Below, one piece after another: positions 1 to 25,364 of a stretch of 64,000 nt of DNA. Each line of letters starts with the position of its first letter. Within the stretch, counting starts at the first letter, position 1. Position numbers and translations under genes: made by a program. The stretch is from a virus. The stretch lies in IMG/VR virus record IMGVR_UViG_3300043438_002264, positions 1 to 64,000 of that record, one strand, 5' to 3'. The notes beneath the pieces were generated by a model. The model was not told the DNA's origin and did no database searches. It saw only the letters and a program-made list of their open reading frames with translations.

Positions 1-2
1 CA

Positions 3-143
3 GAGGCAGACTTGCTTGTGTTTGATAGCGATGTCCTGACCTTGCAGCAATGGGAAACTCTTGGTGAGGTAAGCGACAACGATAGGTATGAGTATGTTCA
101 GGCTATCTTTGCTGGCAAAGACTTATCACTATGGGAGGGCTAA
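3..143 (+). CDS. hypothetical protein, 5'-truncated
   Basis: Open frame from the window edge to TAA 141-143, which overlaps the next ATG (TAATG). Confidence 0.6.
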   Translation, partial: EADLLVFDSDVLTLQQWETLGEVSDNDRYEYVQAIFAGKDLSLWEG

Positions 144-463
144 TGTTAGACCTGATAGAGATGGATTACAGGATTGATGAGTATACCAATGAGGCTAAAG
201 GTATTGCTTTCGATACCTGCCACAAAATCTACGTCCTAATGGATGAGGAGCAGGTTGCTCTTATGCGTGAGTATGGCTATGAAAAACTAATCACAAGTGA
301 TGAGATGAATGGTGATGAGCTAAGACGGCAAGTCATGGACTGGTATCACGAGTCTTGTGGACTTAGGTTTGTCAATGCCGTGTCAAGTGATAAAAGTTTT
401 GGGGATGATGGTTGGGTCACCATTATTGGTCAGGGCGAGGATTCTGAAGACGAAGATGAATAA
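143..463 (+). CDS. acidic hypothetical early protein
   Basis: ORF 131..463; start moved to ATG 143 because of TAATG coupling. Confidence 0.7.
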   Translation: MLDLIEMDYRIDEYTNEAKGIAFDTCHKIYVLMDEEQVALMREYGYEKLITSDEMNGDELRRQVMDWYHESCGLRFVNAVSSDKSFGDDGWVTIIGQGEDSEDEDE

Positions 464-504
464 TGTCGGTGGGTGCTGATAAAGTGGAAGAAAGAAAGGA
501 AACT

Positions 505-675
505 ATGAAAACTTGGCAAGTAGAATACAATGCCGCTTATTGGGTAGAAGCAGAGACAGAAGATGAGGCTATTGAATTAGCTATGGAGAAACACGCTGAC
601 CTACCAGACGGAGATTGGGAAGCTATGATTGACCCCTATGATAGCAACAACTTCAATACCCTTGGAGAAAAGTAA
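505..675 (+). CDS. small acidic hypothetical protein (VEAETEDEAIELA family)
   Basis: ORF 463..675; RBS AGAAAGGA precedes ATG 505. Confidence 0.7.
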   Translation: MKTWQVEYNAAYWVEAETEDEAIELAMEKHADLPDGDWEAMIDPYDSNNFNTLGEK

Positions 676-794
676 TGTCAGCGGGTAGCGTTATAATTAT
701 TGAGTGCCCAAGGCACGAAGGCAATTTCGATTGCACACCATTCTGCAACATATGTGAAGGAGAACAGGAGATAAAATGGGCACCAGGAATCTAA
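675..794 (+). CDS. 39-aa Cys-rich peptide (CPRHEGNFDCTPFCNIC)
   Basis: Translated by hand; TAATG-coupled to the upstream gene; 4 Cys and 1 His; below the ORF-track cutoff. Confidence 0.55.
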   Translation: MSAGSVIIIECPRHEGNFDCTPFCNICEGEQEIKWAPGI

Positions 795-1279
795 CAGTAG
801 TAAAGAATTCGCAGGGTACTACCAAAATTGCTCAATACGGACAATGGGACGGATACCCAAGCTATTCAGGTATTCAGGTCTTAGAGTTTTTGCGTGATGA
901 GTATAACCAACAGCTGTTGGAAGCTAAGCTTGATGTTGTAGAGTTTATTACAGACGAAGAGCTTGACACTATCTATGAGCCTTTCAAGACTATGGATTTT
1001 GAGAATAAGGAATTCCTAAACGCCTACCCTGGCCTACACAGAGATACAGGTGTTGACATTTTGAAAGTTGTTGCCAACGCCAAGGGTATTATCAAGACTG
1101 TAGACAATTCAGACTTTAGGAATGATGAACTATTTTGCGAGGGCGTCTATGAAGTAGACTTCCAATCTAAAAAGTTTATCTCTACTTATAACGAAATCAT
1201 CAAAGAGTTCTTTTTAGAAAACCTTCCGACTAATGAACACTACCTAACTGCAATGGGTGTGGAGCTGGAAACAGTATAA
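776..1279 (+). CDS. conserved phage hypothetical protein (MGTR...QWDGYP)
   Basis: RBS AGGAG; N-terminal motif typical of phage early proteins. Confidence 0.75.
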   Translation: MGTRNLTVVKNSQGTTKIAQYGQWDGYPSYSGIQVLEFLRDEYNQQLLEAKLDVVEFITDEELDTIYEPFKTMDFENKEFLNAYPGLHRDTGVDILKVVANAKGIIKTVDNSDFRNDELFCEGVYEVDFQSKKFISTYNEIIKEFFLENLPTNEHYLTAMGVELETV

Positions 1280-1283
1280 GCAT

Positions 1284-1348
1284 GTTGGCCTAACCTTACT
1301 TCCTTTCTGTTAGGTCAACCGTCCTGGACACGACGTACAAACTGTCCA
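1284..1348 (+). ncRNA. 3' UTR structured element: hairpin with anti-SD loop plus H-type pseudoknot
   Basis: Stem GTTGGCCTAAC/GTTAGGTCAAC; pseudoknot stems CGTC/GACG and TGGACA/TGTCCA. Confidence 0.55.
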
Positions 1349-1355
1349 CTCTTTT

Positions 1356-1430
1356 GGGCTAGCCCACTTGTGTCTAAATGTCAAGCCCTTTACGATCTGT
1401 TTACGATAACCTCGAATCTTTTCCCAAATT
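1356..1430. repeat. composite element copy 1 (GGCTAGCC...TTACGA-N16-CCCAAAT)
   Basis: Palindrome 1356-1365, TTACGA 1401, CCCAAAT 1423; same spacing at 2553 and 5338. Confidence 0.75.
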
Positions 1431-1434
1431 AGTC

Positions 1435-1463
1435 TTGACTTTGTCGGTGGGTGGGTGTAAGAT
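1435..1463 (+). promoter_or_regulatory. early sigma70-type promoter
   Basis: TTGACT-17-TAAGAT with TGTCGGTGGG in the spacer. Confidence 0.75.
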
Positions 1464-1497
1464 AGTCTTATCTAAACACTAAAGAAAGGCAATACAA

Positions 1498-2508
1498 ATG
1501 GCACATTTGTTAGAATCAGTAAACGGAGAAACAGCATTTGCTTCTTTTCGTGAGCCAGCTTGGCACGGATTGGGAACTGTATTCACTGAGGAAGTTTCAA
1601 CAGCTGAAATGCTAAAGAAAGCTAAACTAAACAACTGGGATGTTCGCTTGGAAGATGTAGAGATTCCTAACCAGTTTAGTTCCGACAAGAATTATTCTTT
1701 TGTCGTTAGAGATAACCCATTTACCTTGGGCAATAAGGATGTTCTTGGCATTGTCGGTGAGCGTTATGTTCCTCTTCAGAATGAGGAGCTATTTGATTTT
1801 GCTGACACACTATTAGACAATGGTGGCAGATGGGAAACTGCTGGTTCCATCAAGGGCGGTAGAGTTGTATTTGGCTCACTTGCTCTTGAGCGTGAAACTG
1901 TTATTGACCCTAACGGAGTTGGAGATAAAGTAAACACCTATCTTCTTGTAAACACATCTCACGACGGCTCTATTGCTATTCAGGCAAGCATTACACCTGT
2001 CCGAGTTGTATGTGCTAACACTCTAAACCTTGCTCTTGGTAATCGTGGGCGTAATGGTTCAGTAAAGCAGTCATTCAAGATTCGCCACACACAGACAGCA
2101 GAAGGTAAGATTCAGGTTGCTCGTGAGGCTCTTGGACTTGCTAACGCATACATTGATGAGTTTAGCCTAATGGCAAACAAGATGATTCAAGCTGAGGTTA
2201 GCAAAAAGAAGTTTGATGAAATTGTTTTGGCATTGTATCCACAGCCAAAAGAAGAAGCAAAGAACGCCAACAGTCGTTGGGCAAAAAAGATTGACCTTAT
2301 CAATGACATCTATGTTGGTGATTTCAACAACACAATTACTGGAACAGCTTGGGGTGTTGCTAATGCCCTAACTGAAAGATTAGACTGGTATAGAACAGGT
2401 CGCAAAGGCAAAACAGAATCACTTCTTGTTGGTGCCTCTGGTCTTGACCCAGTCATCAATGCTGAGAAGAATAGAATCTTCAAGGCAGTTCAGTTGGCAA
2501 CAGCCTAA
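1498..2508 (+). CDS. DUF932 / TIGR03299-type phage-plasmid protein
   Basis: Motifs PAWHGLG, YVPLQNEELF, WETAGSIKGGR, NTSHDGS, TPVRVVCANTL, RHT. Confidence 0.85.
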   Translation: MAHLLESVNGETAFASFREPAWHGLGTVFTEEVSTAEMLKKAKLNNWDVRLEDVEIPNQFSSDKNYSFVVRDNPFTLGNKDVLGIVGERYVPLQNEELFDFADTLLDNGGRWETAGSIKGGRVVFGSLALERETVIDPNGVGDKVNTYLLVNTSHDGSIAIQASITPVRVVCANTLNLALGNRGRNGSVKQSFKIRHTQTAEGKIQVAREALGLANAYIDEFSLMANKMIQAEVSKKKFDEIVLALYPQPKEEAKNANSRWAKKIDLINDIYVGDFNNTITGTAWGVANALTERLDWYRTGRKGKTESLLVGASGLDPVINAEKNRIFKAVQLATA

Positions 2509-2515
2509 CAGCAAA

Positions 2516-2542
2516 ACACCTGAGCAAGTGTAAAAACTGCTC
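2516..2542 (+). ncRNA. 3' UTR H-type pseudoknot copy 2
   Basis: ACAC/GTGT and GAGCA/TGCTC, 7 nt after the stop codon. Confidence 0.55.
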
Positions 2543-2552
2543 CCTCTTTTGG

Positions 2553-2625
2553 GGCTAGCCAACTTTACATAAAATAATTAACACCAAAAAATTCTTTACG
2601 AACAATCAAAAAAATCCCCCGAAAT
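2553..2625. repeat. composite element copy 2
   Basis: GGCTAGCC 2553, TTACGA 2596, CCCGAAAT 2618. Confidence 0.75.
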
Positions 2626-2627
2626 CG

Positions 2628-2656
2628 TTGACTTTGTCGGTGGGTATCAGTATAAT
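2628..2656 (+). promoter_or_regulatory. early promoter, leaderless transcript
   Basis: TTGACT-17-TATAAT; ATG 6 nt downstream. Confidence 0.8.
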
Positions 2657-2662
2657 ATACCT

Positions 2663-3049
2663 ATGAACGTAAAAACCCTAAACCACATTGAAACTGCAAA
2701 AGTCCTTGGTCTCAAGAAGGGCGTTATTGTTTATCCTCATGCTGTTGTCAATACCCGCAAAGGTTTGGCAACTGTATCCTTTGAAGGTGTTGGATGGTTT
2801 GAAGACGAGTGCATGTATCCAGTCCTTGTTGGAGACGAATACAACAGCTGGATGGCAAAGCTTACTAAGGAGCAACTGCTAAGCTTAGTAAGAGAAGAAC
2901 CAGGAATGACCCTGCATAAACTAATAGACCCAATCAACGATAGAACACGATCTAATCTGTGGATTTGGGAAAATCAAATCAAAGACTTTGACCAAAATGT
3001 CGTAGGGTCAGAGTATAATGAACTGAAAAGAGAGGAAGCCCATGCCTGA
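2663..3049 (+). CDS. hypothetical protein
   Basis: 128-aa ORF directly after a consensus promoter. Confidence 0.7.
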   Translation: MNVKTLNHIETAKVLGLKKGVIVYPHAVVNTRKGLATVSFEGVGWFEDECMYPVLVGDEYNSWMAKLTKEQLLSLVREEPGMTLHKLIDPINDRTRSNLWIWENQIKDFDQNVVGSEYNELKREEAHA

Positions 3050-3221
3050 ATTTAGAGTACAAAGAGAATACACCAACTGGGAAGAGATTACAGTTGAAGC
3101 AGATACACAAGAAGAGGCCTTAGACCTTGCTCAAGATGATGAGGACCTTTGGGAGTATGCAATTGATGCTACCACATACAACTACACAGGCGAGTATTGG
3201 GTAGGAGAAGACGATGAGTAA
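3042..3221 (+). CDS. small acidic hypothetical protein (VEADTQEEALDLA family)
   Basis: Hand-translated, 59 aa; RBS GAGG; resembles 505..675. Confidence 0.65.
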   Translation: MPEFRVQREYTNWEEITVEADTQEEALDLAQDDEDLWEYAIDATTYNYTGEYWVGEDDE

Positions 3222-3318
3222 GCACATTCATTACTATGCATACGGAGCCTGCACTCATTGTGGCAAGGTAGTAAACAAAGGATTAGGTGTTGACTTATAC
3301 AAAGGCAAGAGAGTATAA
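3214..3318 (+). CDS. 34-aa CxxC peptide
   Basis: Hand-translated MSKHIHYYAYGACTHCGK...; RBS AGGAG. Confidence 0.4.
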   Translation: MSKHIHYYAYGACTHCGKVVNKGLGVDLYKGKRV

Positions 3319-3337
3319 TGGAGAAAGGAGAAAATAA

Positions 3338-3481
3338 ATGACAATGGATGAACTAATGGAATACATTCTAAGAGAACTCCCTAATGCTGTATTTGGCGAG
3401 GAACACACTAACGGAGAAATCCTAATCGCAACTGGATTAGTAGAAGGCAAAAACGGAACCCTATCAGATTTGGATGACTAA
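3338..3481 (+). CDS. 47-aa hypothetical protein
   Basis: RBS GAAAGGAG; TAATG-coupled to the next gene; promoter TTGACT-18-TATAAT at 3290-3319. Confidence 0.65.
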   Translation: MTMDELMEYILRELPNAVFGEEHTNGEILIATGLVEGKNGTLSDLDD

Positions 3482-3876
3482 TGGAGCCAACAGAATACAA
3501 AGGCTGGGATGAGTGGGCTAAAAAGTTCAAGCCTATTCAGAATCACTTTTACCCAGACCAACCAGAAACCACAATGTTTGAAACTTATGGTGAAGAAGTA
3601 GAGTTTGTCAATAACTATGACCATAGGTATGTTTGGACTAATCTTACTGGAGACATGTCAGACCTTATTTGTGCTGGCTATCACTATGTAAATAGGATTG
3701 GTTATTACATTACTGAGGTACCGTGGGATAATGAGGATGACTATGCTTTACTATCAGTTGAGGTAGAGTGTGAATGCTACAACGAAGATGGCTATGAAAA
3801 TGGCGAGTATGGAAAAGCAGACTGTAAAGAATGCGAAGGTTATGGAATGATAACGAGGTATCTCGATGAGGACTAA
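3481..3876 (+). CDS. hypothetical protein with C-terminal Zn-finger-like CxC...CxxCxG
   Basis: ORF track; FETYGEE and GYHYVNRIGYYITEVPW motifs. Confidence 0.75.
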   Translation: MEPTEYKGWDEWAKKFKPIQNHFYPDQPETTMFETYGEEVEFVNNYDHRYVWTNLTGDMSDLICAGYHYVNRIGYYITEVPWDNEDDYALLSVEVECECYNEDGYENGEYGKADCKECEGYGMITRYLDED

Positions 3877-4201
3877 TAGTATTGATAAGACTAAGTTTAT
3901 CTATGACCTAAACATCTATCAGCTGGAGGAGCTGGACGCTGATGGTGAGTACAGGTATATGGGGCCATGGTATATCCATGTCTATGAATACACTGGTAAC
4001 ACGACGGAAGAGGTATCAGTTCCGATCGAGCTGACTCAAGATGAGTATAATAATATACTTAGAGATGACCCATACTATGATGAAAACGATGTCTGGTATG
4101 GCCTGGACGGATTCATGTTTGAAAAATGGAACAACCTGTCAGATAGACTCAAGTTTATCTTTGAGTCCCTACCTAAATACAAGGAAGAAGTTTTATTTTG
4201 A
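3866..4201 (+). CDS. hypothetical protein
   Basis: ORF track; overlaps the upstream stop. Confidence 0.7.
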   Translation: MRTNSIDKTKFIYDLNIYQLEELDADGEYRYMGPWYIHVYEYTGNTTEEVSVPIELTQDEYNNILRDDPYYDENDVWYGLDGFMFEKWNNLSDRLKFIFESLPKYKEEVLF

Positions 4202-4204
4202 TAC

Positions 4205-4233
4205 TTGACAAACTAATAGGATTCCTGTACAAT
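4205..4233 (+). promoter_or_regulatory. sigma70-type promoter
   Basis: TTGACA-17-TACAAT. Confidence 0.7.
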
Positions 4234-4281
4234 GGAATAGCAATACAAAACAATAACCAACAACCCAATAGGAGTAATAAA

Positions 4282-4440
4282 ATGGCAAAGAAGAACAAGG
4301 CAAAAACCTATCCTTATCTTGAGACTTGGGACACACGCTATGGTATGAGTCAGCGTGTGGTTCTACGCAAGGATGGTAAGTTCGTAGATAACATCTCACT
4401 TACCGCACTGAAGCAAGGGGTTAGGGTTTCCTCTCGCTAA
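4282..4440 (+). CDS. small basic hypothetical protein
   Basis: RBS AGGAG before ATG 4282 within ORF 4198..4440. Confidence 0.7.
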   Translation: MAKKNKAKTYPYLETWDTRYGMSQRVVLRKDGKFVDNISLTALKQGVRVSSR

Positions 4441-4451
4441 TCAGTAAATGA

Positions 4452-4490
4452 GAAAAGGGGGGCACAGGTTCAGGCTTGTGTCCCCTTTCC
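4452..4490 (+). terminator. stem-loop, probable terminator
   Basis: GAAAAGGGGGGCACAGG / CTTGTGTCCCCTTTCC. Confidence 0.55.
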
Positions 4491-4514
4491 CGTTCTGGTA
4501 TAATGAGAGGACCT

Positions 4515-4727
4515 ATGAGAAGAAGAATAAAAACAGAAGAAGAAAAAGCAGCATTGAAGTTAGCAACAATTGTTTCTGATGTGAGATTAGACTTAGATGA
4601 AGTTGGTATCTATCTTGGAAGATACGCACCAGCAGTTTCATACAACAGACTAATACTTGTAGCAGAATCAGCAGAGTTTGAGAAAGAGAGTATAGATGTC
4701 CGAAACACCCACGAACCACTTTTTTAG
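4515..4727 (+). CDS. hypothetical protein
   Basis: GAGG RBS and TATAAT before ATG 4515. Confidence 0.7.
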   Translation: MRRRIKTEEEKAALKLATIVSDVRLDLDEVGIYLGRYAPAVSYNRLILVAESAEFEKESIDVRNTHEPLF

Positions 4728-4977
4728 AAAGTGTGAGATTCTTGGAGAGCTTTGGCTCAACTATCGTAATGACGAACAGTTCCAAGACTTTATAGAATAC
4801 AACGACTTGGGCTTGCCACTTGCTTATGCGTTTGCTAATGAAATTGCCAAAGAGACAGAGCTGGCAGAAAGATATGTAAATGAAAGCTATGACCTACTCG
4901 CAGAATCTTTGGGGGTATCAGGAACAGAACCATTTGATAGTCTTGAAGATATGTTAGAACAGTCAGTAGGAGAATAA
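4696..4977 (+). CDS. acidic hypothetical protein
   Basis: ORF track; paralogue of the next gene (DLGLPLAY vs DIGFPLAS). Confidence 0.75.
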   Translation: MSETPTNHFFRKCEILGELWLNYRNDEQFQDFIEYNDLGLPLAYAFANEIAKETELAERYVNESYDLLAESLGVSGTEPFDSLEDMLEQSVGE

Positions 4978-5303
4978 TGCCAGAGACACTACATTCAGAT
5001 AAGAGAGCTATCCTTGCTCAAATGTGGGAAGAGGACAGAGAGAATCTGGCTCTTCAGAAATTGTTTGAGTATGGAGATATTGGATTTCCACTCGCAAGCT
5101 CTATAGAGAATGATATTGTTGCCAGCACCTTAGTAGCAGAAAAATACATTGAGGATTTGTGGAATGTAATGCTTCAGTATTTTGGTGTTGAGGATACAGG
5201 AGAGTATGACCACTGGACGGACATCGCAGATGCGGCTGGTTGGGAGTGGGTAGAAAACTCAGAAGTTCCAGCGTATCTTGAAAAGTTAGAAAAAGAAAAC
5301 TAA
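4977..5303 (+). CDS. acidic hypothetical protein, tandem paralogue
   Basis: TAATG coupling; AGGAG RBS. Confidence 0.75.
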   Translation: MPETLHSDKRAILAQMWEEDRENLALQKLFEYGDIGFPLASSIENDIVASTLVAEKYIEDLWNVMLQYFGVEDTGEYDHWTDIADAAGWEWVENSEVPAYLEKLEKEN

Positions 5304-5337
5304 TAGACTTGCCCTCACTTAAGGTGGGGGTAAAGTC

Positions 5338-5830
5338 GGCTAGCCCTATCAAATTGAGATATCCAAATAGCCAAATACCATTACGAACGCTATCATATTT
5401 TTCCCAAATTGTCAAATACTATTTTCCCAAATAGGATTACGATCCTAATATGTTTTTCCCCAAAATGGGATTACGATCCATAGGATCTTTTTCCCAAATA
5501 GGGGTATAATTGGTATATGAGCCCAAGAAGATATTTCACACACTTCACAAATATGTATGTTCCCATAGATGATAATGTTAACTATGGTACTAACCTATGG
5601 TTTACCTTTACTGCTATTACAGGTATATCTAAGCTCTTCACATATACCCCCGATTTTTTGCAGGGGCAGGAGCAGCAGCCGCAGGCTGCAGATTCCCAGG
5701 GTATTGAAGACACCTTGGATAACAAATCCCTCTAGTATAATATACATTACGAACCCTTTGGATTTTTCCCCAAATATGGGATATGTTTCTTAAAATAACA
5801 TTACGATTATCAAATATTTTATCCCAAATT
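5338..5830. repeat. composite element copy 3 plus array of TTACGA-N16-CCCAAA units
   Basis: GGCTAGCC 5338; TTACGA at 5381, 5437, 5471, 5747, 5801, each with CCCAAA 22 nt later. Confidence 0.8.
5517..5735 (+). CDS. hypothetical protein, leaderless
   Basis: TATAAT 6 nt upstream of ATG. Confidence 0.5.
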   Translation: MSPRRYFTHFTNMYVPIDDNVNYGTNLWFTFTAITGISKLFTYTPDFLQGQEQQPQAADSQGIEDTLDNKSL

Positions 5831-5876
5831 GGGGATATTATTGTATGTTTTATATGCGGATATTTGGCATACAAGG

Positions 5877-5918
5877 ATACAGTATTTGGTATTTGATATA
5901 CAGTATTTGGTACTTGAC
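5877..5918 (+). repeat. 21-bp tandem repeat x2
   Basis: ATACAGTATTTGGTATTTGAT / ATACAGTATTTGGTACTTGAC. Confidence 0.8.
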
Positions 5919-6023
5919 AAATGAGGGAAAGTGTGATAGGCAATTTGGGCCTTACGAACCCTCAATCAGAAATGCCCCATTACCCATATCTCTCCACAAC
6001 CATCCACAAATAGCCAAATAGAT

Positions 6024-6064
6024 TTATCCACAGTAAGATGTATATGTGGATAACTTGTGAATAA
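6024..6064. promoter_or_regulatory. DnaA-box cluster (possible origin)
   Basis: TTATCCACA 6024-6032, TGTGGATAA 6045-6053, TGTGAATAA 6056-6064. Confidence 0.65.
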
Positions 6065-6364
6065 CTTATCAAATATGTGTATAAGTTTTTAAAATTTGGG
6101 GGTATTTAGATCTTCGGATGGGCGGCTATCGTTTATTCAAATATGCCAATATGAGAGCACAAACGCCAAATAGGATTGTCAGGCATATGATGATTTGGTC
6201 ATTTGTCATGTATCCAGTATAGCAAGATTTCTGGATTATTTCTTCAATGTTATTAATGAGCATATGAGGGTTATTGCTATCATCCAAACCATCACGTTAT
6301 CCAACATAGGTTATTCCTTATACTAGGGATTACGAAGGCTCGTTTTAATACCCCCGAAATTATC

Positions 6365-6440
6365 TGGTGCCCTCAGTTGGACTCGAACCAACACTGAATA
6401 GATTTTAAGTCTACTTCCTCTGCCATTGGGATATGAGGGC
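6365..6440 (-). tRNA. tRNA-Leu(TAA), short variable loop, encoded CCA
   Basis: Cloverleaf GCCCTCA...TGAGGGC-A-CCA; anticodon loop CTTAAAA; T loop TTCGAGT. Confidence 0.92.
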
Positions 6441-6446
6441 TAATGA

Positions 6447-6647
6447 CTATTTTCTACCCCAACTGACTTTAAGCCAAAACCTTTCATGGATGTAATACAA
6501 TACAAAGTTAATAAGATTTGATATCAAGGATAGGGATGCTGCAAACTCCCAGCTGTTGGTCATTACGAACCCAACTCCAAATGTCACGAATATTGCTATT
6601 AGTCTCCAGGTTATGGACTTAGCTAGTGAACGTCTTTTACTGACCAT
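6447..6647 (-). CDS. DUF2061-like small membrane protein
   Basis: RSLAKSITWR...YYIHERFW pattern. Confidence 0.8.
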   Translation of the reverse strand: MVSKRRSLAKSITWRLIAIFVTFGVGFVMTNSWEFAASLSLISNLINFVLYYIHERFWLKVSWGRK

Positions 6648-6852
6648 CTATTTCCCAGTCTTTGGCATATCCATAACATACCCCACCTGTGGTCATATCC
6701 CAAATAGCGATCTCTCCTAGCTGGAGATATTTGACCTGAGTTGGGGATGTGATATGGAACATCCATTTGCCTTCTGGAATAGCAAATTCAGTATCTGAGT
6801 CACTCATTCGATTGATATGTGTGTCTCTCTTGGCTGTTGCAAATTGGCTCAT
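6637..6852 (-). CDS. hypothetical protein, leaderless
   Basis: ATG 6 nt after TATAAT. Confidence 0.65.
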   Translation of the reverse strand: MSQFATAKRDTHINRMSDSDTEFAIPEGKWMFHITSPTQVKYLQLGEIAIWDMTTGGVCYGYAKDWEIDGQ

Positions 6853-6858
6853 ATATAA

Positions 6859-6916
6859 ATTATACAGGGGACACTAGAGAATGTCAAGCACTTGTGCTTG
6901 CATTAATCTCTATTTA
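6859..6916 (-). promoter_or_regulatory. promoter cassette copy A with palindrome overlapping -35
   Basis: TTGACA-17-TATAAT; CAAGCAC-TT-GTGCTTG; 58-bp near-duplicate at 8121-8178. Confidence 0.75.
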
Positions 6917-6927
6917 CCGCCGAACTT

Positions 6928-7686
6928 TTAGTTATTAGTTTCAATAATACGGGTGTATGTAATATCGCTATTGCCGTTGCCTTTAGCCCAGTTTTTTATC
7001 GAACGAACTTCAGTCCTGTCTCCTGGCTTACCCCCAGCGTGGATCATTTCGTCAGGGCCTATATAGATTCCGATGTGATAGGCACTACCATAACTTTGAT
7101 AGTTAAAAGACACAAGGTCCCCAATCTTAGGAACAGTGACAATGGCTCCAGATAGTCTTTGCTTTGTTGCACTGTGCTCTAGATCAACACCCAGGTGAGC
7201 ATATGTCCACATAACCATTCCTGAGCAGTCCCAAGCTGATGGCGTGGATCCGCTAAAGACCCAAGGTGTTTTTCCAATTTGCTTTTTAACCAAGACTAAA
7301 GTTTCATTCAACTTCTTGGTATCGCTGGCAACTTTTTCCAGTCTGGCAATCTCTGCCTCTAGCTCATCTTGTTTTTTCTCAGCGTCGGACTTGAGCTTAT
7401 CCTTTGCTGCCTTCTCCTGAGCCATCCAATCAACGGAACCAACAAGTGGTGCGTCTGAAGCCAGGACTGGCCCAACTGCCAACTCTAGAGCCTTCACTGG
7501 CCCTGAGAAGATAACTTCTGTTGTTACTGGAGAATCAATTACTGGTGTTGGCTTTGTTACTTGTGTTACTGGTTGTTCTATGTTTGATGACTCAGTTGAC
7601 TCTATCATAGCTCCAAAAGCTACTCCAGTGCCACTTGTCAGTAGCAGTGCAATCATACCAATTGCTATGAACCTTTTTTCTTTCAT
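6928..7686 (-). CDS. secreted NlpC/P60 peptidoglycan endopeptidase
   Basis: Signal peptide, coiled coil, TPWVFSG, DCSG, HIGIY, MIHA. Confidence 0.9.
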   Translation of the reverse strand: MKEKRFIAIGMIALLLTSGTGVAFGAMIESTESSNIEQPVTQVTKPTPVIDSPVTTEVIFSGPVKALELAVGPVLASDAPLVGSVDWMAQEKAAKDKLKSDAEKKQDELEAEIARLEKVASDTKKLNETLVLVKKQIGKTPWVFSGSTPSAWDCSGMVMWTYAHLGVDLEHSATKQRLSGAIVTVPKIGDLVSFNYQSYGSAYHIGIYIGPDEMIHAGGKPGDRTEVRSIKNWAKGNGNSDITYTRIIETNN

Positions 7687-7833
7687 TTAGCGACCTACCT
7701 TTCCTTGTTAGTTAGTACTCGGTCGTTGAGCGTTAGTGGGTGGTTTACCCTATTAAGTTATAAACCCTTGAGACAGACACATCCATCTCAAAGGGGTACT
7801 ACTATTTTACCATAAATTAAGACAAAATACACA

Positions 7834-8088
7834 TTACTTAGTTTTATTTTTAGTTTTTAGCTTTAGGTTAGTGACCTTTTTTAGCCAAGGTTTCTCTGAA
7901 TATCTGGCCCATTCATAGATAAAGATGCAGGCTGCAATAAGCAGTCCAAGGGAGGCTGACTGCACAATGTAGTAAGGGGTTGGATCAATTAGATAAGTTT
8001 CCCAAGGGAAGCTATAAGCCACCACTGGGAATGCAATGATGTTTCCAAACACTACGGCAACTACAATACTCTTGTAAACGTTTTTCAT
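7834..8088 (-). CDS. small membrane protein
   Basis: Two hydrophobic segments; RBS AAGGAG. Confidence 0.7.
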   Translation of the reverse strand: MKNVYKSIVVAVVFGNIIAFPVVAYSFPWETYLIDPTPYYIVQSASLGLLIAACIFIYEWARYSEKPWLKKVTNLKLKTKNKTK

Positions 8089-8120
8089 TTGTTCTCCTTG
8101 TTAGTTAAATCTTATGTATC

Positions 8121-8178
8121 ATTATACAGGTGGTGCTAGAGGATGTCAAGTACTTGTACTTGTATTAATCTCTATTTA
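8121..8178 (-). promoter_or_regulatory. promoter cassette copy B
   Basis: TTGACA-17-TATAAT; CAAGTAC-TT-GTACTTG. Confidence 0.75.
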
Positions 8179-9081
8179 TCAAAATCCCAGAAATGCGTAC
8201 CTTATCGCCCTATCCAGTAGCTTGCTGTGATAGTAAATAGGATCAACTCTGTTAAGCCCTCCATGGATATTCCACTTAGCTCTGTTAAAACAGTTTGGAC
8301 TATCTATCGGCCATGCGTTTAGCCCAACGTAAACGAAACGGTTTGCAGTTTCAGTAAAAATCCCAGCACCACTATCTCCATCACATCCTGCACCAGTTTT
8401 CTTACTGGTTTTTGTCCAACCCCATTTTTCATAGGGGTCAGTAAATGCAGGCCAATAATGTTTGTCAAGACGATTGTCCATTACAAGGTTGTAATGCTTC
8501 TCATCTACAAAGGGAAACGTGAGTGTTCTGGGCCACTTGTACCCCTCCATTTTCATGTTCCTTTCTTCTTCCGACGATAATCCGTAGCCCCCAATGGTCA
8601 CAAACGCCTTCTCTTTGACTAAGTTCTTGAATTCGGCTTCGGTAGCTGCTGTGGCCCAGGAAACTTTTGCAACTGGCTCTTTGGTCACTACAATCATAAA
8701 ATCCTTATTGTTATAAGCTGCAAGGTTTCTAACCGTGCTGTATTTTTTGTAGCTGAATACCTTTTTAGCTTGCACGAGGTCAGTTCGATCGGTGCTAAGA
8801 AGCTGTCCTGGATAGCCTATAAAGACTTGGGTGTCTGGCCACTTTTCATCACCTCTAAATGGCCTGAATTGACAATGCCCTGCAGAAATGACAATTCTGG
8901 GAGCGAAAAGAAATCCTGAGCATGCTGAGTAAAAGTCTTCTGAGGAGCCTTTATCGTCCAAAAGTACAATTGAAACAATCCTTGGATGATTTCTTGCCTC
9001 TTCTCCGCCCTCAATTGCAAAAGATTGAATTGGCTGAAGCACCAGGATTGAAGAGACAATAGCTATTAATAGTTTTTTCAA
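8179..9081 (-). CDS. secreted trypsin-like (S1) serine protease
   Basis: Signal peptide then IEGG; CSG...SAGHC; D; CDGDSGAG; start placed at TTG 9081. Confidence 0.88.
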   Translation of the reverse strand: MKKLLIAIVSSILVLQPIQSFAIEGGEEARNHPRIVSIVLLDDKGSSEDFYSACSGFLFAPRIVISAGHCQFRPFRGDEKWPDTQVFIGYPGQLLSTDRTDLVQAKKVFSYKKYSTVRNLAAYNNKDFMIVVTKEPVAKVSWATAATEAEFKNLVKEKAFVTIGGYGLSSEEERNMKMEGYKWPRTLTFPFVDEKHYNLVMDNRLDKHYWPAFTDPYEKWGWTKTSKKTGAGCDGDSGAGIFTETANRFVYVGLNAWPIDSPNCFNRAKWNIHGGLNRVDPIYYHSKLLDRAIRYAFLGF

Positions 9082-9629
9082 TTTCCACCTACCCATTTTG
9101 AGAACAATAGTTTTTGATATATTTCTTTTGCATCTTCTAAAAATGGGGCTGTTTTTGTATACTCTAGGGCTTCTGGATATGAGCTAACATCTTTAGAGCT
9201 TACTAGATACCCTTCTTTTGCATCATCTTTAGAAAGGTTAAGGTCATACTCAACACTTGATCGTTTTAAAGAAAAATGATCTAAGAATTTTTCTATTGTA
9301 TTTTTAGGATCATTAGTCAGGTCTTCGTAAGAAACAACATAAGTTGCATTTTCTAAAAGCCAGGCATAGGTTTCTTCATATTTTTTTAGCATTCGTGGGA
9401 TTATCCCATAACCGTTTTCTTTTTTATAAAAATCTACCATAGCCATAGCAGATGCGACAGACTCTACTGGATTTCTTATTATTGTTATAGTTTGCTTTTT
9501 ATCTAAAAAATGTGTTATTTCGTGAGAAGCTAAAATGGAATATCCTTGTTGGCGAAGAAGCATTCTAAAAAGATTTTGTCCAGACCTGGGATATGTTATT
9601 AACTTCATATCTTCAATTTCTTTTTTCAT
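9078..9629 (-). CDS. sulfotransferase-like P-loop protein
   Basis: TYPRSG, IIRNP..S..S, VSYEDL motifs. Confidence 0.7.
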   Translation of the reverse strand: MKKEIEDMKLITYPRSGQNLFRMLLRQQGYSILASHEITHFLDKKQTITIIRNPVESVASAMAMVDFYKKENGYGIIPRMLKKYEETYAWLLENATYVVSYEDLTNDPKNTIEKFLDHFSLKRSSVEYDLNLSKDDAKEGYLVSSKDVSSYPEALEYTKTAPFLEDAKEIYQKLLFSKWVGGN

Positions 9630-25079: not shown

Positions 25080-25364
25080 TTATTGATCCATCGTTAAGTT
25101 TTTCCAAGTTTCTCCCCATTGTTCTTTGGTTCGATGCCTCGAAAATTCTCTAGAAATTTTTCCGTTTTCTAAAAATATTCCTCCCCAGACTCCCCATTCT
25201 TTCTGAGAAACTCCAACAGCAAAGCAGTCTTTTGAAACTGGGCAAGCTGAGCAAAGCTTGTCAATCGCTGGCCTTAAAGATAAGTTTTCTTCATATTTAT
25301 CAAAAAATAAATTTGTGTCATAGCCGTTGCAAGAGCCAGAGTCTTTCCACTGGTGCTTAGGCAT
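25080..25364 (-). CDS. whiB: WhiB-family Fe-S transcription factor
   Basis: W...SC...D.NLFF...C..CPV...C...GVWGG; start at ATG 25364. Confidence 0.92.
   Translation of the reverse strand: MPKHQWKDSGSCNGYDTNLFFDKYEENLSLRPAIDKLCSACPVSKDCFAVGVSQKEWGVWGGIFLENGKISREFSRHRTKEQWGETWKNLTMDQ

What the first reader, a model, noticed from the sequence alone, without database searches (positions are those of the whole stretch)
1356..6360. Fixed-geometry composite DNA element (GGCTAGCC - TTACGA - N16 - CCCRAA) at gene-cassette junctions and arrayed in the strand-switch region
Seen: TTACGA is followed exactly 22 nt later (about two helical turns) by CCC(A/G)AA at 1401/1423, 2596/2618, 5381/5403, 5437/5459, 5471/5493, 5747/5769 and 5801/5823, and 23 nt later at 6330/6353. 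The spacer sequences differ. At three loci the palindrome GGCTAGCC lies 43-44 nt upstream of TTACGA (1357, 2553, 5338). Each of these three copies follows the end of a transcription unit, and two end just before the -35 of an early promoter. Inference: conserved spacing with free spacers points to a multi-protein nucleoprotein site. Options: a core-plus-accessory recombination site that shuffles early gene cassettes, iterons of an origin or packaging site, or an antisense promoter (TTTGGG-N17-CGTAA on the minus strand) for an alternative sigma factor. I know no named element with this layout.
Basis: partly seen in the sequence, partly recalled or inferred. Interest (0 to 1): 0.85.

Follow-up and report, generated by a model that had tools for sequence, protein, structure and literature searches.

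The report
Phased promoter-control boxes in an actinophage
The repeated TTACGA...CCCRAA sites are real, conserved protein-binding-type control boxes set at whole helical turns upstream of this lake phage's early promoters and clustered beside its genome-end region, but the protein that reads them is still unknown.

Summary
TTACGA-N16-CCCRAA occurs 7 times in the window against 0.01 expected, always on the early-gene strand.

The element is conserved. It appears in 34 of 47 related metagenomic phages. It also forms an array within about 680 bp of the mapped physical left end of 5 of 5 cultured Streptomyces BE-cluster phages.

The "free" spacer is not free. The two boxes are rungs of an 11-bp ladder (TTAMGA / TTAMGA / CCCRAA). 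The ladder stands at 33-36, 44-48, 54-60, 66-70 and 78-81 nt from the -10 of PafBC-type promoters (period 11.2-11.4).

Best reading (0.55): helically phased upstream sites for an unidentified transcription factor. The array beside a DnaA-box pair may have a further genome-end role.

Other points:
- GGCTAGCC is specific to this genome.
- A dedicated recombination site and an antisense or alternative-sigma promoter are not supported.
- An origin, packaging or injection role for the array is not excluded.
- This scan found the same class before on other DNA (e1-6041736).
- No expression or binding data exist.

The parts
1357..1364 (.). GGCTAGCC palindrome, the outermost box of module 1, 101 nt before the -10. 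It is specific to this genome.
   Evidence: absent from 42 of 47 related loci
1390..1395 (+). Extra TTACGA box, the rung 68 nt before the -10
1401..1428 (+). TTACGA (rung 57) - CTCGAA (rung 47) - CCCAAA (rung 35): the element upstream of the DUF932 gene promoter
   Evidence: (21.6 bits); orthologous copies in relatives
1435..1463 (+). Early promoter: TTGACT, then TGTCGG-N10-TAAGAT (PafBC / RecA-NDp type)
   Evidence: motif tGTCgg(N10)tA(N3)T from PMC8635444 (passages)
2553..2560 (.). GGCTAGCC of module 2, 98 nt before the -10
2596..2623 (+). TTACGA (rung 55) ... CCCGAA (rung 33) element
   Evidence: (28.7 bits)
2628..2656 (+). Early promoter: TTGACT, then TGTCGG-N10-TATAAT
5338..5345 (.). GGCTAGCC at the head of the array, after the last early gene (4977-5303)
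5381..5408 (+). Array copy 1
   Evidence: 26.9 bits
5437..5464 (+). Array copy 2
   Evidence: 27.0 bits
5471..5498 (+). Array copy 3. Its TTACGA lies 34 nt before TATAAT 5505-5510.
   Evidence: (24.7 bits)
5505..5735 (+). TATAAT-N6-ATG, then a conserved 72-codon gene (5517-5735) with a leaderless-type layout
   Evidence: (86%, 71%, 42% and 36% identity in L017, L016, L015, L030)
5747..5774 (+). Array copy 4
   Evidence: 31.6 bits
5801..5828 (+). Array copy 5
   Evidence: 16.4 bits
6024..6053 (.). Inverted pair of perfect DnaA boxes, TTATCCACA (6024) and TGTGGATAA (6045)
   Evidence: the same pair lies beside the Jay2Jay terminal repeat
6330..6358 (+). Last array copy (N17), preceded by the -10-like cttatactaggga. 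Its context is conserved in at least 12 relatives.
   Evidence: 26.2 bits
6563..6590 (+). Possible weak extra copy inside a - strand ORF
   Evidence: 17.3 bits; the best shuffle scored 16.5

Best explanation
The element is a cis-regulatory protein-binding module of the phage's early promoters. It is not two boxes with a free spacer. It is a ladder of hexamer boxes about 11 bp apart on one face of the DNA: distal TTA(C/A)GA boxes, often two or three, and a proximal CCCRAA-type box.

The ladder stands at whole helical turns upstream of the -10 element of promoters read by the host RNA polymerase. Most of these promoters are of the PafBC / RecA-NDp type, and some are leaderless-type promoters without a PafBC box.

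An unidentified sequence-specific protein, or an oligomer of one, is inferred to bind the ladder and touch the polymerase or PafBC from that face, switching early promoters on or off.

The cluster of copies after the last early gene includes at least one such promoter, for a conserved 72-codon gene. By synteny with cultured relatives, the cluster lies at the edge of the long terminal repeat beside a DnaA-box pair, so it may have a second, genome-end role.

Shown: sequence, strand lock, conservation and phasing.
For: 1. Non-random and strand-locked.
- 7 matches against 0.01 expected.
- Over 48 genomes, TTACGA occurs 368 times on the + strand and 103 times on the - strand. The second box starts at offset 21-22 in 141 cases on + and 2 on -.

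2. Confined to the early block and array.
- 13 + strand matrix hits, all within genome 112-122.6 kb; the matrix was trained on relatives only.

3. Conserved while the surrounding sequence diverges.
- 34 of 47 related loci (53-91% protein identity) have at least one copy.
- The orthologous DUF932 promoter keeps the boxes.

4. Ladder.
- TTA[AC]GA occurs 623 times on + and 165 on -.
- Pair distances peak at 12 nt (38 pairs; 73 pairs at 9-13 nt), against 0 on the - strand.

5. Phasing to promoters.
- 187 boxes upstream of 385 distinct TGTC-N12-TAnnnT contexts fall at 33-36, 44-48, 54-60, 66-70, 78-81 and 90 nt from the -10.
- The intervals between these clusters are nearly empty. The period is 11.2-11.4 and the vector strength 0.61.
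- The same rungs (33-37, 45, 57, 68, 82-84) appear before leaderless-type -10/ATG pairs.

6. In this genome, 7 of 14 TGTC-N12-TAnnnT matches in the early block carry the full ladder at rungs 22-23, 32-35, 43-47, 54-57 and 68.

7. The same geometry occurs in cultured soil phages: 26 distinct copies in 5 Streptomyces phages, with A at +16 in 25 of 26 and C at +21/+22.

8. An earlier agent of this scan reached the same reading on another genome (e1-6041736). That is a lead, not independent proof.
Against: - No reader protein was found.
  - The phage has no match to Sigma70_r2, Trans_reg_C, HTH_17, ParB_N or Lsr2.
  - The ten early proteins scanned gave only DUF7178 and DUF932.
- No RNA run holds the phage, so there are no transcription starts.
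- Three intergenic PafBC-type promoters lack the ladder (genome 115227, window 464 and 676), as do two strong sigma-70-like promoters (3290, 4205).
- In Jay2Jay the copies are only in the end array, not at early promoters.
- The related loci are kin, so the counts are not independent events.
- A tri-box scan of prokaryote genomes gave only scattered single hits.
Confidence: 0.55

Rival explanations
1. The primary role is at the genome end. The array is the recognition region for terminase (a pac/cosB-like site), a T5-like injection-stop or boundary element, or an iteron origin working with host DnaA. The promoter-side copies would be secondary.
For: - In 5 of 5 cultured BE-cluster phages examined, 5-6 TTACGA copies lie within about 680 bp of the physical left end, on the early strand, against 0-1 on the other strand.
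- Those ends were mapped by read starts (PMC5764925, passages).
- The Jay2Jay repeat is 11,438 bp and exact.
- A perfect inverted DnaA-box pair lies 70-90 bp outside it and at window 6024/6045.
- 18 of 30 arrays in relatives have a perfect DnaA box within 600 bp.
- The T5 terminal repeat has an untranslated repeat region with paired DnaA boxes at its inner edge (preprint 10.1101/866236, passages).
Against: - It does not explain the 11-bp phasing to -10 elements or the copies spread over 9 kb of early promoters.
- Array spacing is irregular (34, 56, 276, 54, 151 and 378 nt).
- No initiator gene was identified.
- The T5 DnaA model is itself untested.
- The physical ends of this lake phage are unknown.
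Confidence: 0.2
2. There is no reader. The copies are remnants of duplicated promoter modules, kept only by common descent and by recombination between modules.
For: - Modules 1 and 2 share an identical 18-nt promoter core.
- Cassettes are reshuffled among relatives, with breakpoints in the modules.
- Contigs from other lake samples diverge across whole intergenic modules (joints 1336-1474 and 2544-2617).
Against: - The boxes persist while the spacers diverge, in relatives down to 63% protein identity and in soil phages.
- Strict strand bias and 11-bp phasing, with nearly empty intervals between the rungs, are not expected from drift.
Confidence: 0.1
3. Each element is itself a + strand promoter for an alternative or phage-modified sigma, with TTACGA as -35 and CCRAAT as -10 at a 17-nt spacing.
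For: - The spacing of 16-17 nt fits a -35/-10 pair.
- TTACGA resembles TTGACA.
- The copies lie in tandem with early promoters.
Against: - The second box varies (CCCAAA, GTGGAA, CTGGAA, CCAGAA; CCGGGA in soil phages) and lacks the A at -11.
- TTAMGA repeats every 11-12 nt.
- No consistent gene or start follows at a fixed distance.
- No sigma region 2 was found, and only a sub-threshold region 4 match.
Confidence: 0.07
4. The elements are dedicated site-specific recombination sites, with GGCTAGCC as core and TTACGA/CCCRAA as accessory arms, that shuffle early gene cassettes.
For: - All 8 GGCTAGCC sites head a ladder between cassettes.
- The DUF932 cassette sits on the other side of two small-gene cassettes in L013-L018.
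Against: - GGCTAGCC is absent from 42 of 47 related loci, including those with the rearrangement.
- Breakpoints fall at gene borders or at the promoter core (for example homology starting at 1432), not at the palindrome.
- No Phage_integrase or Resolvase match was found.
- No deletion or circle joint at the palindrome appeared in four runs (contigs only).
Confidence: 0.04
5. The elements are - strand (antisense) promoters, TTTGGG-N17-CGTAAT.
For: One array copy has a good - strand TTGACA-N17-TAGCGT that overlaps it (window 5391-5419).
Against: - The would-be -35 (the reverse complement of box 2) changes between lineages.
- CGTAAT lacks the A at -11.
- Every transcript would run antisense to early genes.
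- The overlapping TTGACA promoter is specific to that one positional copy.
Confidence: 0.03

Closest known systems
Tandem direct-repeat operators of OmpR/PhoB-family and SARP activators (PHO boxes, GlnR boxes, afs boxes)
   Same: - Hexamer or heptamer direct repeats with an 11-bp period on one helical face.
- The repeats extend upstream from, or replace, the -35.
- The number of units varies per promoter.
The properties of these families are recalled, apart from the search listing and abstract of the AfsR paper PMC10936776.
   Different: - The box sequences (TTAMGA, CCCRAA) match no consensus that I know.
- The promoter-proximal unit differs from the distal ones.
- No winged-helix regulator is encoded by the phage.
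Helically phased class I/II activator sites (CRP) and phage phi29 p4 sites
   Same: The sites work from positions one helical turn apart relative to the promoter. The nearest TTACGA is centred near -43.5. This comparison was also named by the earlier agent e1-6041736. The properties of CRP and p4 sites are recalled.
   Different: The sites are asymmetric and multi-box rather than palindromic, and there is no known protein.
PafBC-dependent (RecA-NDp) promoters read by sigma adaptation
   Same: - The adjacent promoters fit tGTCgg(N10)tA(N3)T (PMC8635444 passages).
- In rung-35 promoters without a PafBC box, CCCRAA lies at about -24 to -19, close to the place of the -26 element.
   Different: The TTACGA ladder is not part of the published PafBC motif. 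The passages I read name no further consensus in PafBC promoters, only that no -35-like one was found. In the soil phages the ladder occurs without PafBC boxes.
Untranslated repeat region / injection stop signal of the phage T5 terminal repeat
   Same: - A long terminal repeat carries the early genes.
- A conserved repeat-rich stretch with paired DnaA boxes lies at the repeat's inner edge.
   Different: - The phage family is unrelated (DnaE-type polymerase).
- There is one DnaA pair, not eight.
- The repeats are different.
- Two-step injection has not been shown here.
Stoperators of mycobacteriophage L5 (cluster A)
   Same: Asymmetric sites in an actinophage, many copies, intergenic, all in one orientation relative to transcription. 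The properties of stoperators are recalled.
   Different: - Stoperators are single 13-bp sites spread over the whole genome of a temperate phage and are read by its repressor.
- Here the sites are multi-box ladders, only in the early block, phased upstream of promoters.
- No repressor or integrase was found.

Membership tests
Phased direct-repeat operator (OmpR/PhoB / SARP type) | Direct repeats of one short unit with a period of about 11 bp | tested here: met
   TTA[AC]GA pair distances peak at 12 nt (38 pairs; 73 at 9-13 nt) on the + strand and 0 on the - strand.
Phased direct-repeat operator (OmpR/PhoB / SARP type) | Fixed helical register to the -10, with the proximal unit next to or in the -35 slot | tested here: met
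   Rungs at 33-36, 44-48, 54-60, 66-70 and 78-81 nt, period 11.2-11.4. CCCAAA sits in the -35 slot at genome 113136 and 113785.
Phased direct-repeat operator (OmpR/PhoB / SARP type) | All units alike in sequence | tested here: inconclusive
   The distal units are TTAMGA. The proximal unit is CCCRAA, GTGGAA or CCAGAA.
Phased direct-repeat operator (OmpR/PhoB / SARP type) | A cognate winged-helix regulator | tested here: inconclusive
   The phage has no Trans_reg_C match. The host is unknown and was not searched.
Sigma-factor promoter (-35/-10) | Two hexamers 16-18 nt apart | tested here: met
   N16, or 17 if CCRAAT is read as the -10.
Sigma-factor promoter (-35/-10) | A conserved -10-type element, with starts or genes at a fixed distance | tested here: not met
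   Box 2 varies by lineage and by copy. No conserved signal follows +31. The distance to real -10 elements changes in 11-bp steps.
Sigma-factor promoter (-35/-10) | A matching sigma factor | tested here: inconclusive
   The phage has no Sigma70_r2 match, and a region-4 match of 13.8 bits below the cut-off. Host sigmas were not examined.
Iteron-type replication origin | Tandem same-sense repeats beside DnaA boxes | tested here: met
   The array at 5381-6358 includes a DnaA pair at 6024/6045. 18 of 30 arrays in relatives have a DnaA box within 600 bp.
Iteron-type replication origin | Regular iteron spacing and an adjacent initiator gene | tested here: not met
   Spacings are 34-378 nt. No initiator was recognised among the neighbouring proteins.
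Site-specific recombination / cassette site | A recombinase encoded by the element | tested here: not met
   No Phage_integrase or Resolvase match in the genome.
Site-specific recombination / cassette site | A conserved core sequence at cassette breakpoints | tested here: not met
   GGCTAGCC is present in only 5 of 47 loci, one copy each. Breakpoints fall at gene borders or promoter cores.
T5-type terminal-repeat stop region | A repeat-rich untranslated stretch with DnaA boxes at the inner edge of a long terminal repeat that carries early genes | tested here: met
   Met in the cultured relative Jay2Jay. In this phage it rests on synteny only.
T5-type terminal-repeat stop region | Two-step DNA transfer that depends on early proteins | not testable with these tools
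   Needs infection experiments.
L5-type stoperator | An asymmetric site in one orientation relative to transcription | tested here: met
   0 of 73 strict matches in relatives lie on the - strand.
L5-type stoperator | Sites spread over the whole genome and read by the phage repressor | tested here: not met
   All strong sites lie in the 10-kb early block plus array. No repressor was identified.

The most novel reading that the evidence does not exclude
A still unknown DNA-binding factor, shared by lake actinophages and soil Streptomyces BE-cluster phages or by their hosts, reads a TTACGA-based helical code that organises the whole long terminal repeat. On this reading it docks on RNA polymerase as a second 'sigma adaptor' beside PafBC at early promoters. 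As an array next to a DnaA-box pair, it also marks the physical edge of the terminal repeat, where early transcription, DNA entry or packaging must stop. That would link promoter control and genome-end function through one cis code.
Probability: 0.15. Interest if true: 0.8.

Novelty: new variant of a known kind. Interest (0 to 1): 0.55.

Why it matters
Early gene control in large lytic actinophages is almost unstudied. These phages appear to borrow the host DNA-damage activator PafBC for their early promoters. The TTACGA ladder is a second, equally conserved layer on the same promoters, and its reader is unknown.

The same element sits at the mapped genome end of cultured Streptomyces phages such as Jay2Jay, Evy, Karimac and Yaboi.

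If the array proves to be a boundary element of the terminal repeat, it would give a handle on how long-terminal-repeat siphoviruses outside the T5 group enter cells or package their DNA.

Tried and rejected
- **RNA evidence:** no RNA holder was listed for window 1-8500. The four DNA runs laid were contigs only. They showed strain divergence and rearrangement joints but no start, end or excision signal.
- **Known RNA families:** Rfam found only the tRNA.
- **Near-identical phage records:** none.
- **Reader protein:**
  - Domain searches of the phage gave nothing for Sigma70_r2, Trans_reg_C, HTH_17, ParB_N and Lsr2. Sigma70_r4_2 scored 13.8 bits, below the cut-off. A WhiB-like gene exists at 25176-25349, but nothing links it to the sites.
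  - DUF932 is the only protein shared between this early block and the Jay2Jay repeat, so I treated it as a candidate reader. It has no solved relative by sequence. The model had mean pLDDT 76. Foldseek gave no match at E of 0.001 or better, and the best VIA-align Z was 6.2, in the range the tool calls common. No case for DNA binding could be made.
- **Host regulon:** The 80 rows shown were single hits scattered over unrelated phyla, as chance predicts. This tells nothing about a host regulon.
- **parS:** perfect copies occur only in L009 and L047, so it is not a general feature.
- **Resemblances considered from memory and dropped**, because the flanks or second halves do not fit: LexA/Cheo box, GlnR boxes, the ComX cin-box, sigma-54, ECF promoters, and SigK (CCGAAT).
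- **Literature:**
  - A search for TTACGA + promoter + phage returned 20 papers, none relevant by title or abstract.
  - A search for DUF932 returned 13 papers with no functional study by title or abstract.
  - The cluster BE1 announcement has no occurrence of 'motif', 'promoter' or 'noncoding'.
  - Supplementary files were not opened.
- **Correction:** my note said 22 of 47 loci. The correct count is 20 of 47 for the strict pattern.

Full report
**What the DNA is.** The window is the first 64 kb of a 124,540-bp single-contig virus record with 38.5% G+C. IMG/VR classes it as having direct terminal repeats. Window 1-8517 is repeated exactly at genome 116024-124540.

- Its DnaE-type polymerase is 55% identical to those of Streptomyces phages, and the phage carries a WhiB-like gene. 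The host is therefore an actinobacterium.
- DNA runs that hold the sequence are lake-water metagenomes.
- Genes at 1-5303, continuing from genome 112435, lie on the + strand and form one block of small genes. From 6365 onward the genes lie on the - strand.
- Both ends of the contig's repeat cut open reading frames (3..143 and 8179..9096). I infer that the 8.5-kb repeat may be an assembly overlap and not the physical repeat.

**The observation.** All coordinates in the finding are right.

- TTACGA-N16-CCCRAA occurs 7 times in the window against 0.01 expected. The 6330 copy has N17.
- In the whole genome there are 10 unique copies at N15-18, all on the + strand.
- A weight matrix built only from 93 sites of related phages finds 13 + strand sites at 12 bits or more, all between genome 112 kb and window 6.6 kb. 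It finds 2 weak - strand sites, at about the shuffle level.
- GGCTAGCC has 8 unique copies, all in the same block, and each heads one of these modules.

**Conservation.** The DUF932 protein (1498-2508) brought in 47 related IMG/VR loci with 32-91% identity.

- The strict pattern occurs in 20 of 47 loci: 73 matches, none on the - strand.
- With a relaxed second box, 34 of 47 loci have a copy. 30 of 47 have an array of at least 3 TTACGA within 600 bp.
- TTACGA is invariant. The second box differs by lineage and by copy: CCCAAA/CCCGAA here, GTGGAA/CTGGAA in L020 and L029, CCAGAA in L041.
- Its position is sharp. The second box starts at offset 21-22 in 141 of 368 + strand TTACGA, against 2 of 103 on the - strand.
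- GGCTAGCC is not conserved (5 of 47 loci, one copy each). Other lineages carry other G+C-rich palindromes at that place, for example GGGGCGCCCC in L041 and GGGGTACCCC in L009.

**The spacer is not free: a ladder.** The information profile shows W at +6, a TTAAGA-like or A/T run at +12 to +19, and C at +21 to +23.

- In the orthologous DUF932 promoters the middle box is often an explicit TTAAGA. In some relatives TTAAGA replaces TTACGA altogether.
- TTA[AC]GA is strongly strand-biased (623 against 165). Neighbouring copies lie 12 nt apart (38 pairs; 73 at 9-13 nt; none on the - strand).

**Phasing to promoters.** The early promoters fit the PafBC (RecA-NDp) motif tGTCgg(N10)tA(N3)T. An earlier agent of this scan made this point (e1-6151996), and I checked it against passages of PMC8635444.

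- Over 385 distinct TGTC-N12-TAnnnT contexts in 48 genomes, the 187 upstream TTA[AC]GA boxes start at 33-36, 44-48, 54-60, 66-70, 78-81 or 90 nt before the -10, with almost nothing in between. The period is 11.2-11.4 and the vector strength 0.61.
- The same rungs appear before -10/ATG pairs of leaderless type that lack a PafBC box.
- In this genome the ladder reads as follows:
  - Module 1: TTACGA at 68 and 57, CTCGAA at 47, CCCAAA at 35, TTGACT at 23.
  - Module 2: TTACGA at 55, CCCGAA at 33, TTGACT at 23.
  - Upstream modules: 57/46/35/22, 45/33/23, 45/23, 54/43/32 and 46/33.
- Seven of 14 PafBC-type matches in the block have the ladder. Four of the rest lie inside genes, and three real-looking promoters lack it. 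So do two strong sigma-70-like promoters at 3290 and 4205.

Positions one helical turn apart are the mark of a protein that must face the polymerase. They are not expected for an independent tandem promoter or for a recombination site.

**The array.** After the last early gene come GGCTAGCC (5338) and five copies (5381-5828). A TTACGA alone follows at 5952, then an inverted pair of perfect DnaA boxes (6024, 6045), and then a last copy at 6330.

- Copy 5471 lies 34 nt before TATAAT 5505. Six bases after that hexamer comes the ATG of a 72-codon gene, which is conserved in L017, L016, L015 and L030. At least part of the array is therefore promoter furniture.
- The last copy is preceded by a -10-like hexamer 5 nt upstream, in a context conserved in at least 12 relatives. 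I cannot say what it drives.
- The order 'DnaA boxes, early block, array with DnaA pair, opposite-strand genes' recurs in most relatives.

**Cultured relatives.** The DUF932 gene also lies inside the roughly 11-kb terminal repeats of Streptomyces BE-cluster phages. Their ends were mapped by read starts (PMC5764925, passages).

- In 5 of 5 examined (Jay2Jay, Evy, Yaboi, Karimac, LilMartin), the first 680 bp or so from the physical left end hold 5-6 TTACGA on the early strand and 0-1 on the other.
- The geometry is the same: 26 distinct copies, A at +16 in 25, a T-rich +18 to +20, and C at +21/+22.
- Two phages of the sister subfamily (BillNye, Annadreamy) have no such array.
- In Jay2Jay the repeat is 11,438 bp and exact, and the early promoters lack TTACGA.
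- A perfect inverted DnaA pair lies 70-90 bp outside the repeat, next to the array.

The array is therefore the part of the system shared by both groups, and it marks the edge of the terminal repeat. This layout recalls the untranslated repeat region with paired DnaA boxes at the inner edge of the T5 terminal repeat. A preprint proposes that region as the injection stop (10.1101/866236, passages). That is an analogy of layout only.

**Recombination.** Relatives do carry the cassettes in a different order. The DUF932 cassette precedes the homologues of window 509-1266 in L013-L018. The homology blocks end at gene borders or at the shared promoter core, the rearranged relatives lack GGCTAGCC, and no recombinase domain is present. 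Ordinary recombination between repeated promoter modules explains this better than a dedicated site.

**Who reads it.** Unknown. Domain searches of the phage, ten early proteins, and a model of DUF932 gave no DNA-binding candidate. A scan of prokaryote genomes for the tri-box gave chance-like scatter. No RNA data exist for the phage.

**Verdict.**
- The best reading (0.55) is a helically phased, multi-box upstream control site of the early promoters with an unidentified reader.
- A genome-end role for the array is the main rival (0.2).
- The recombination, antisense-promoter and alternative-sigma readings are disfavoured.
- The same class was already reported by this scan on another genome (e1-6041736).
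- New here: the three-box ladder, the link to the mapped ends of cultured Streptomyces phages, the conserved DnaA pair, and the finding that GGCTAGCC is private to this genome.

Noticed in passing
window 5517-5735 (+): A conserved 72-codon gene (MSPRRYF...) lies inside the supposed non-coding strand-switch region. It has a TATAAT-N6-ATG leaderless-type layout and homologues in L017, L016, L015 and L030.
   Followed up: partly
window 6024-6053; genome 112206, 112227, 112317: Perfect DnaA boxes (TTATCCACA) flank the early block on both sides. The inverted pair with a spacer of 12 nt here and 13 nt in Jay2Jay is also found in the soil phage, just outside its terminal repeat.
   Followed up: partly
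window 25176-25349 (-): A WhiB-like gene (45 bits, above the Pfam cut-off). It supports an actinobacterial host.
   Followed up: no
window 1 and 8517 (contig repeat boundaries): Both ends of the 8517-bp contig repeat fall inside open reading frames. By synteny with Jay2Jay, the true terminal repeat may instead run from the DnaA boxes near genome 112.2 kb to the array.
   Followed up: partly
genome 112306, 113079, 113730 (+); window 1357 and genome 114830 (-): A consensus TTGAC(A/T) lies 17-18 nt from the TAGCC of GGCTAGCC at 5 of 8 sites, on either strand. TAGCCN is a poor -10, so the meaning is unclear.
   Followed up: no
L041, L009 and other loci, 15-45 nt upstream of TTACGA: Each lineage has its own G+C-rich palindrome where this genome has GGCTAGCC (GGGGCGCCCC, GGGGTACCCC). 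They resemble type II restriction-site-like hexamers flanked by G and C runs.
   Followed up: no
L009:5285 and L047:2883: Perfect 14-nt parS-like palindromes (GTTTCACGTGAAAC) occur in two related loci, one of them inside the element array. None is present in this genome.
   Followed up: yes
window 509-2661 against L013-L018: The DUF932 cassette, together with its downstream promoter module, sits on the other side of two small-gene cassettes in six relatives. Promoter modules travel with the upstream gene.
   Followed up: partly
window 5475-5487: The spacer of array copy 5471 forms a GATCC-ATA-GGATC hairpin followed by a T run, which the scan flagged as terminator-like. The hairpin is kept in L014, L016 and L017 with loop changes.
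   Followed up: no
window 1498-2508 (+): The DUF932 protein is the only protein shared between this early block and the Jay2Jay terminal repeat. Its model (mean pLDDT 76) has no clear structural relative.
   Followed up: yes
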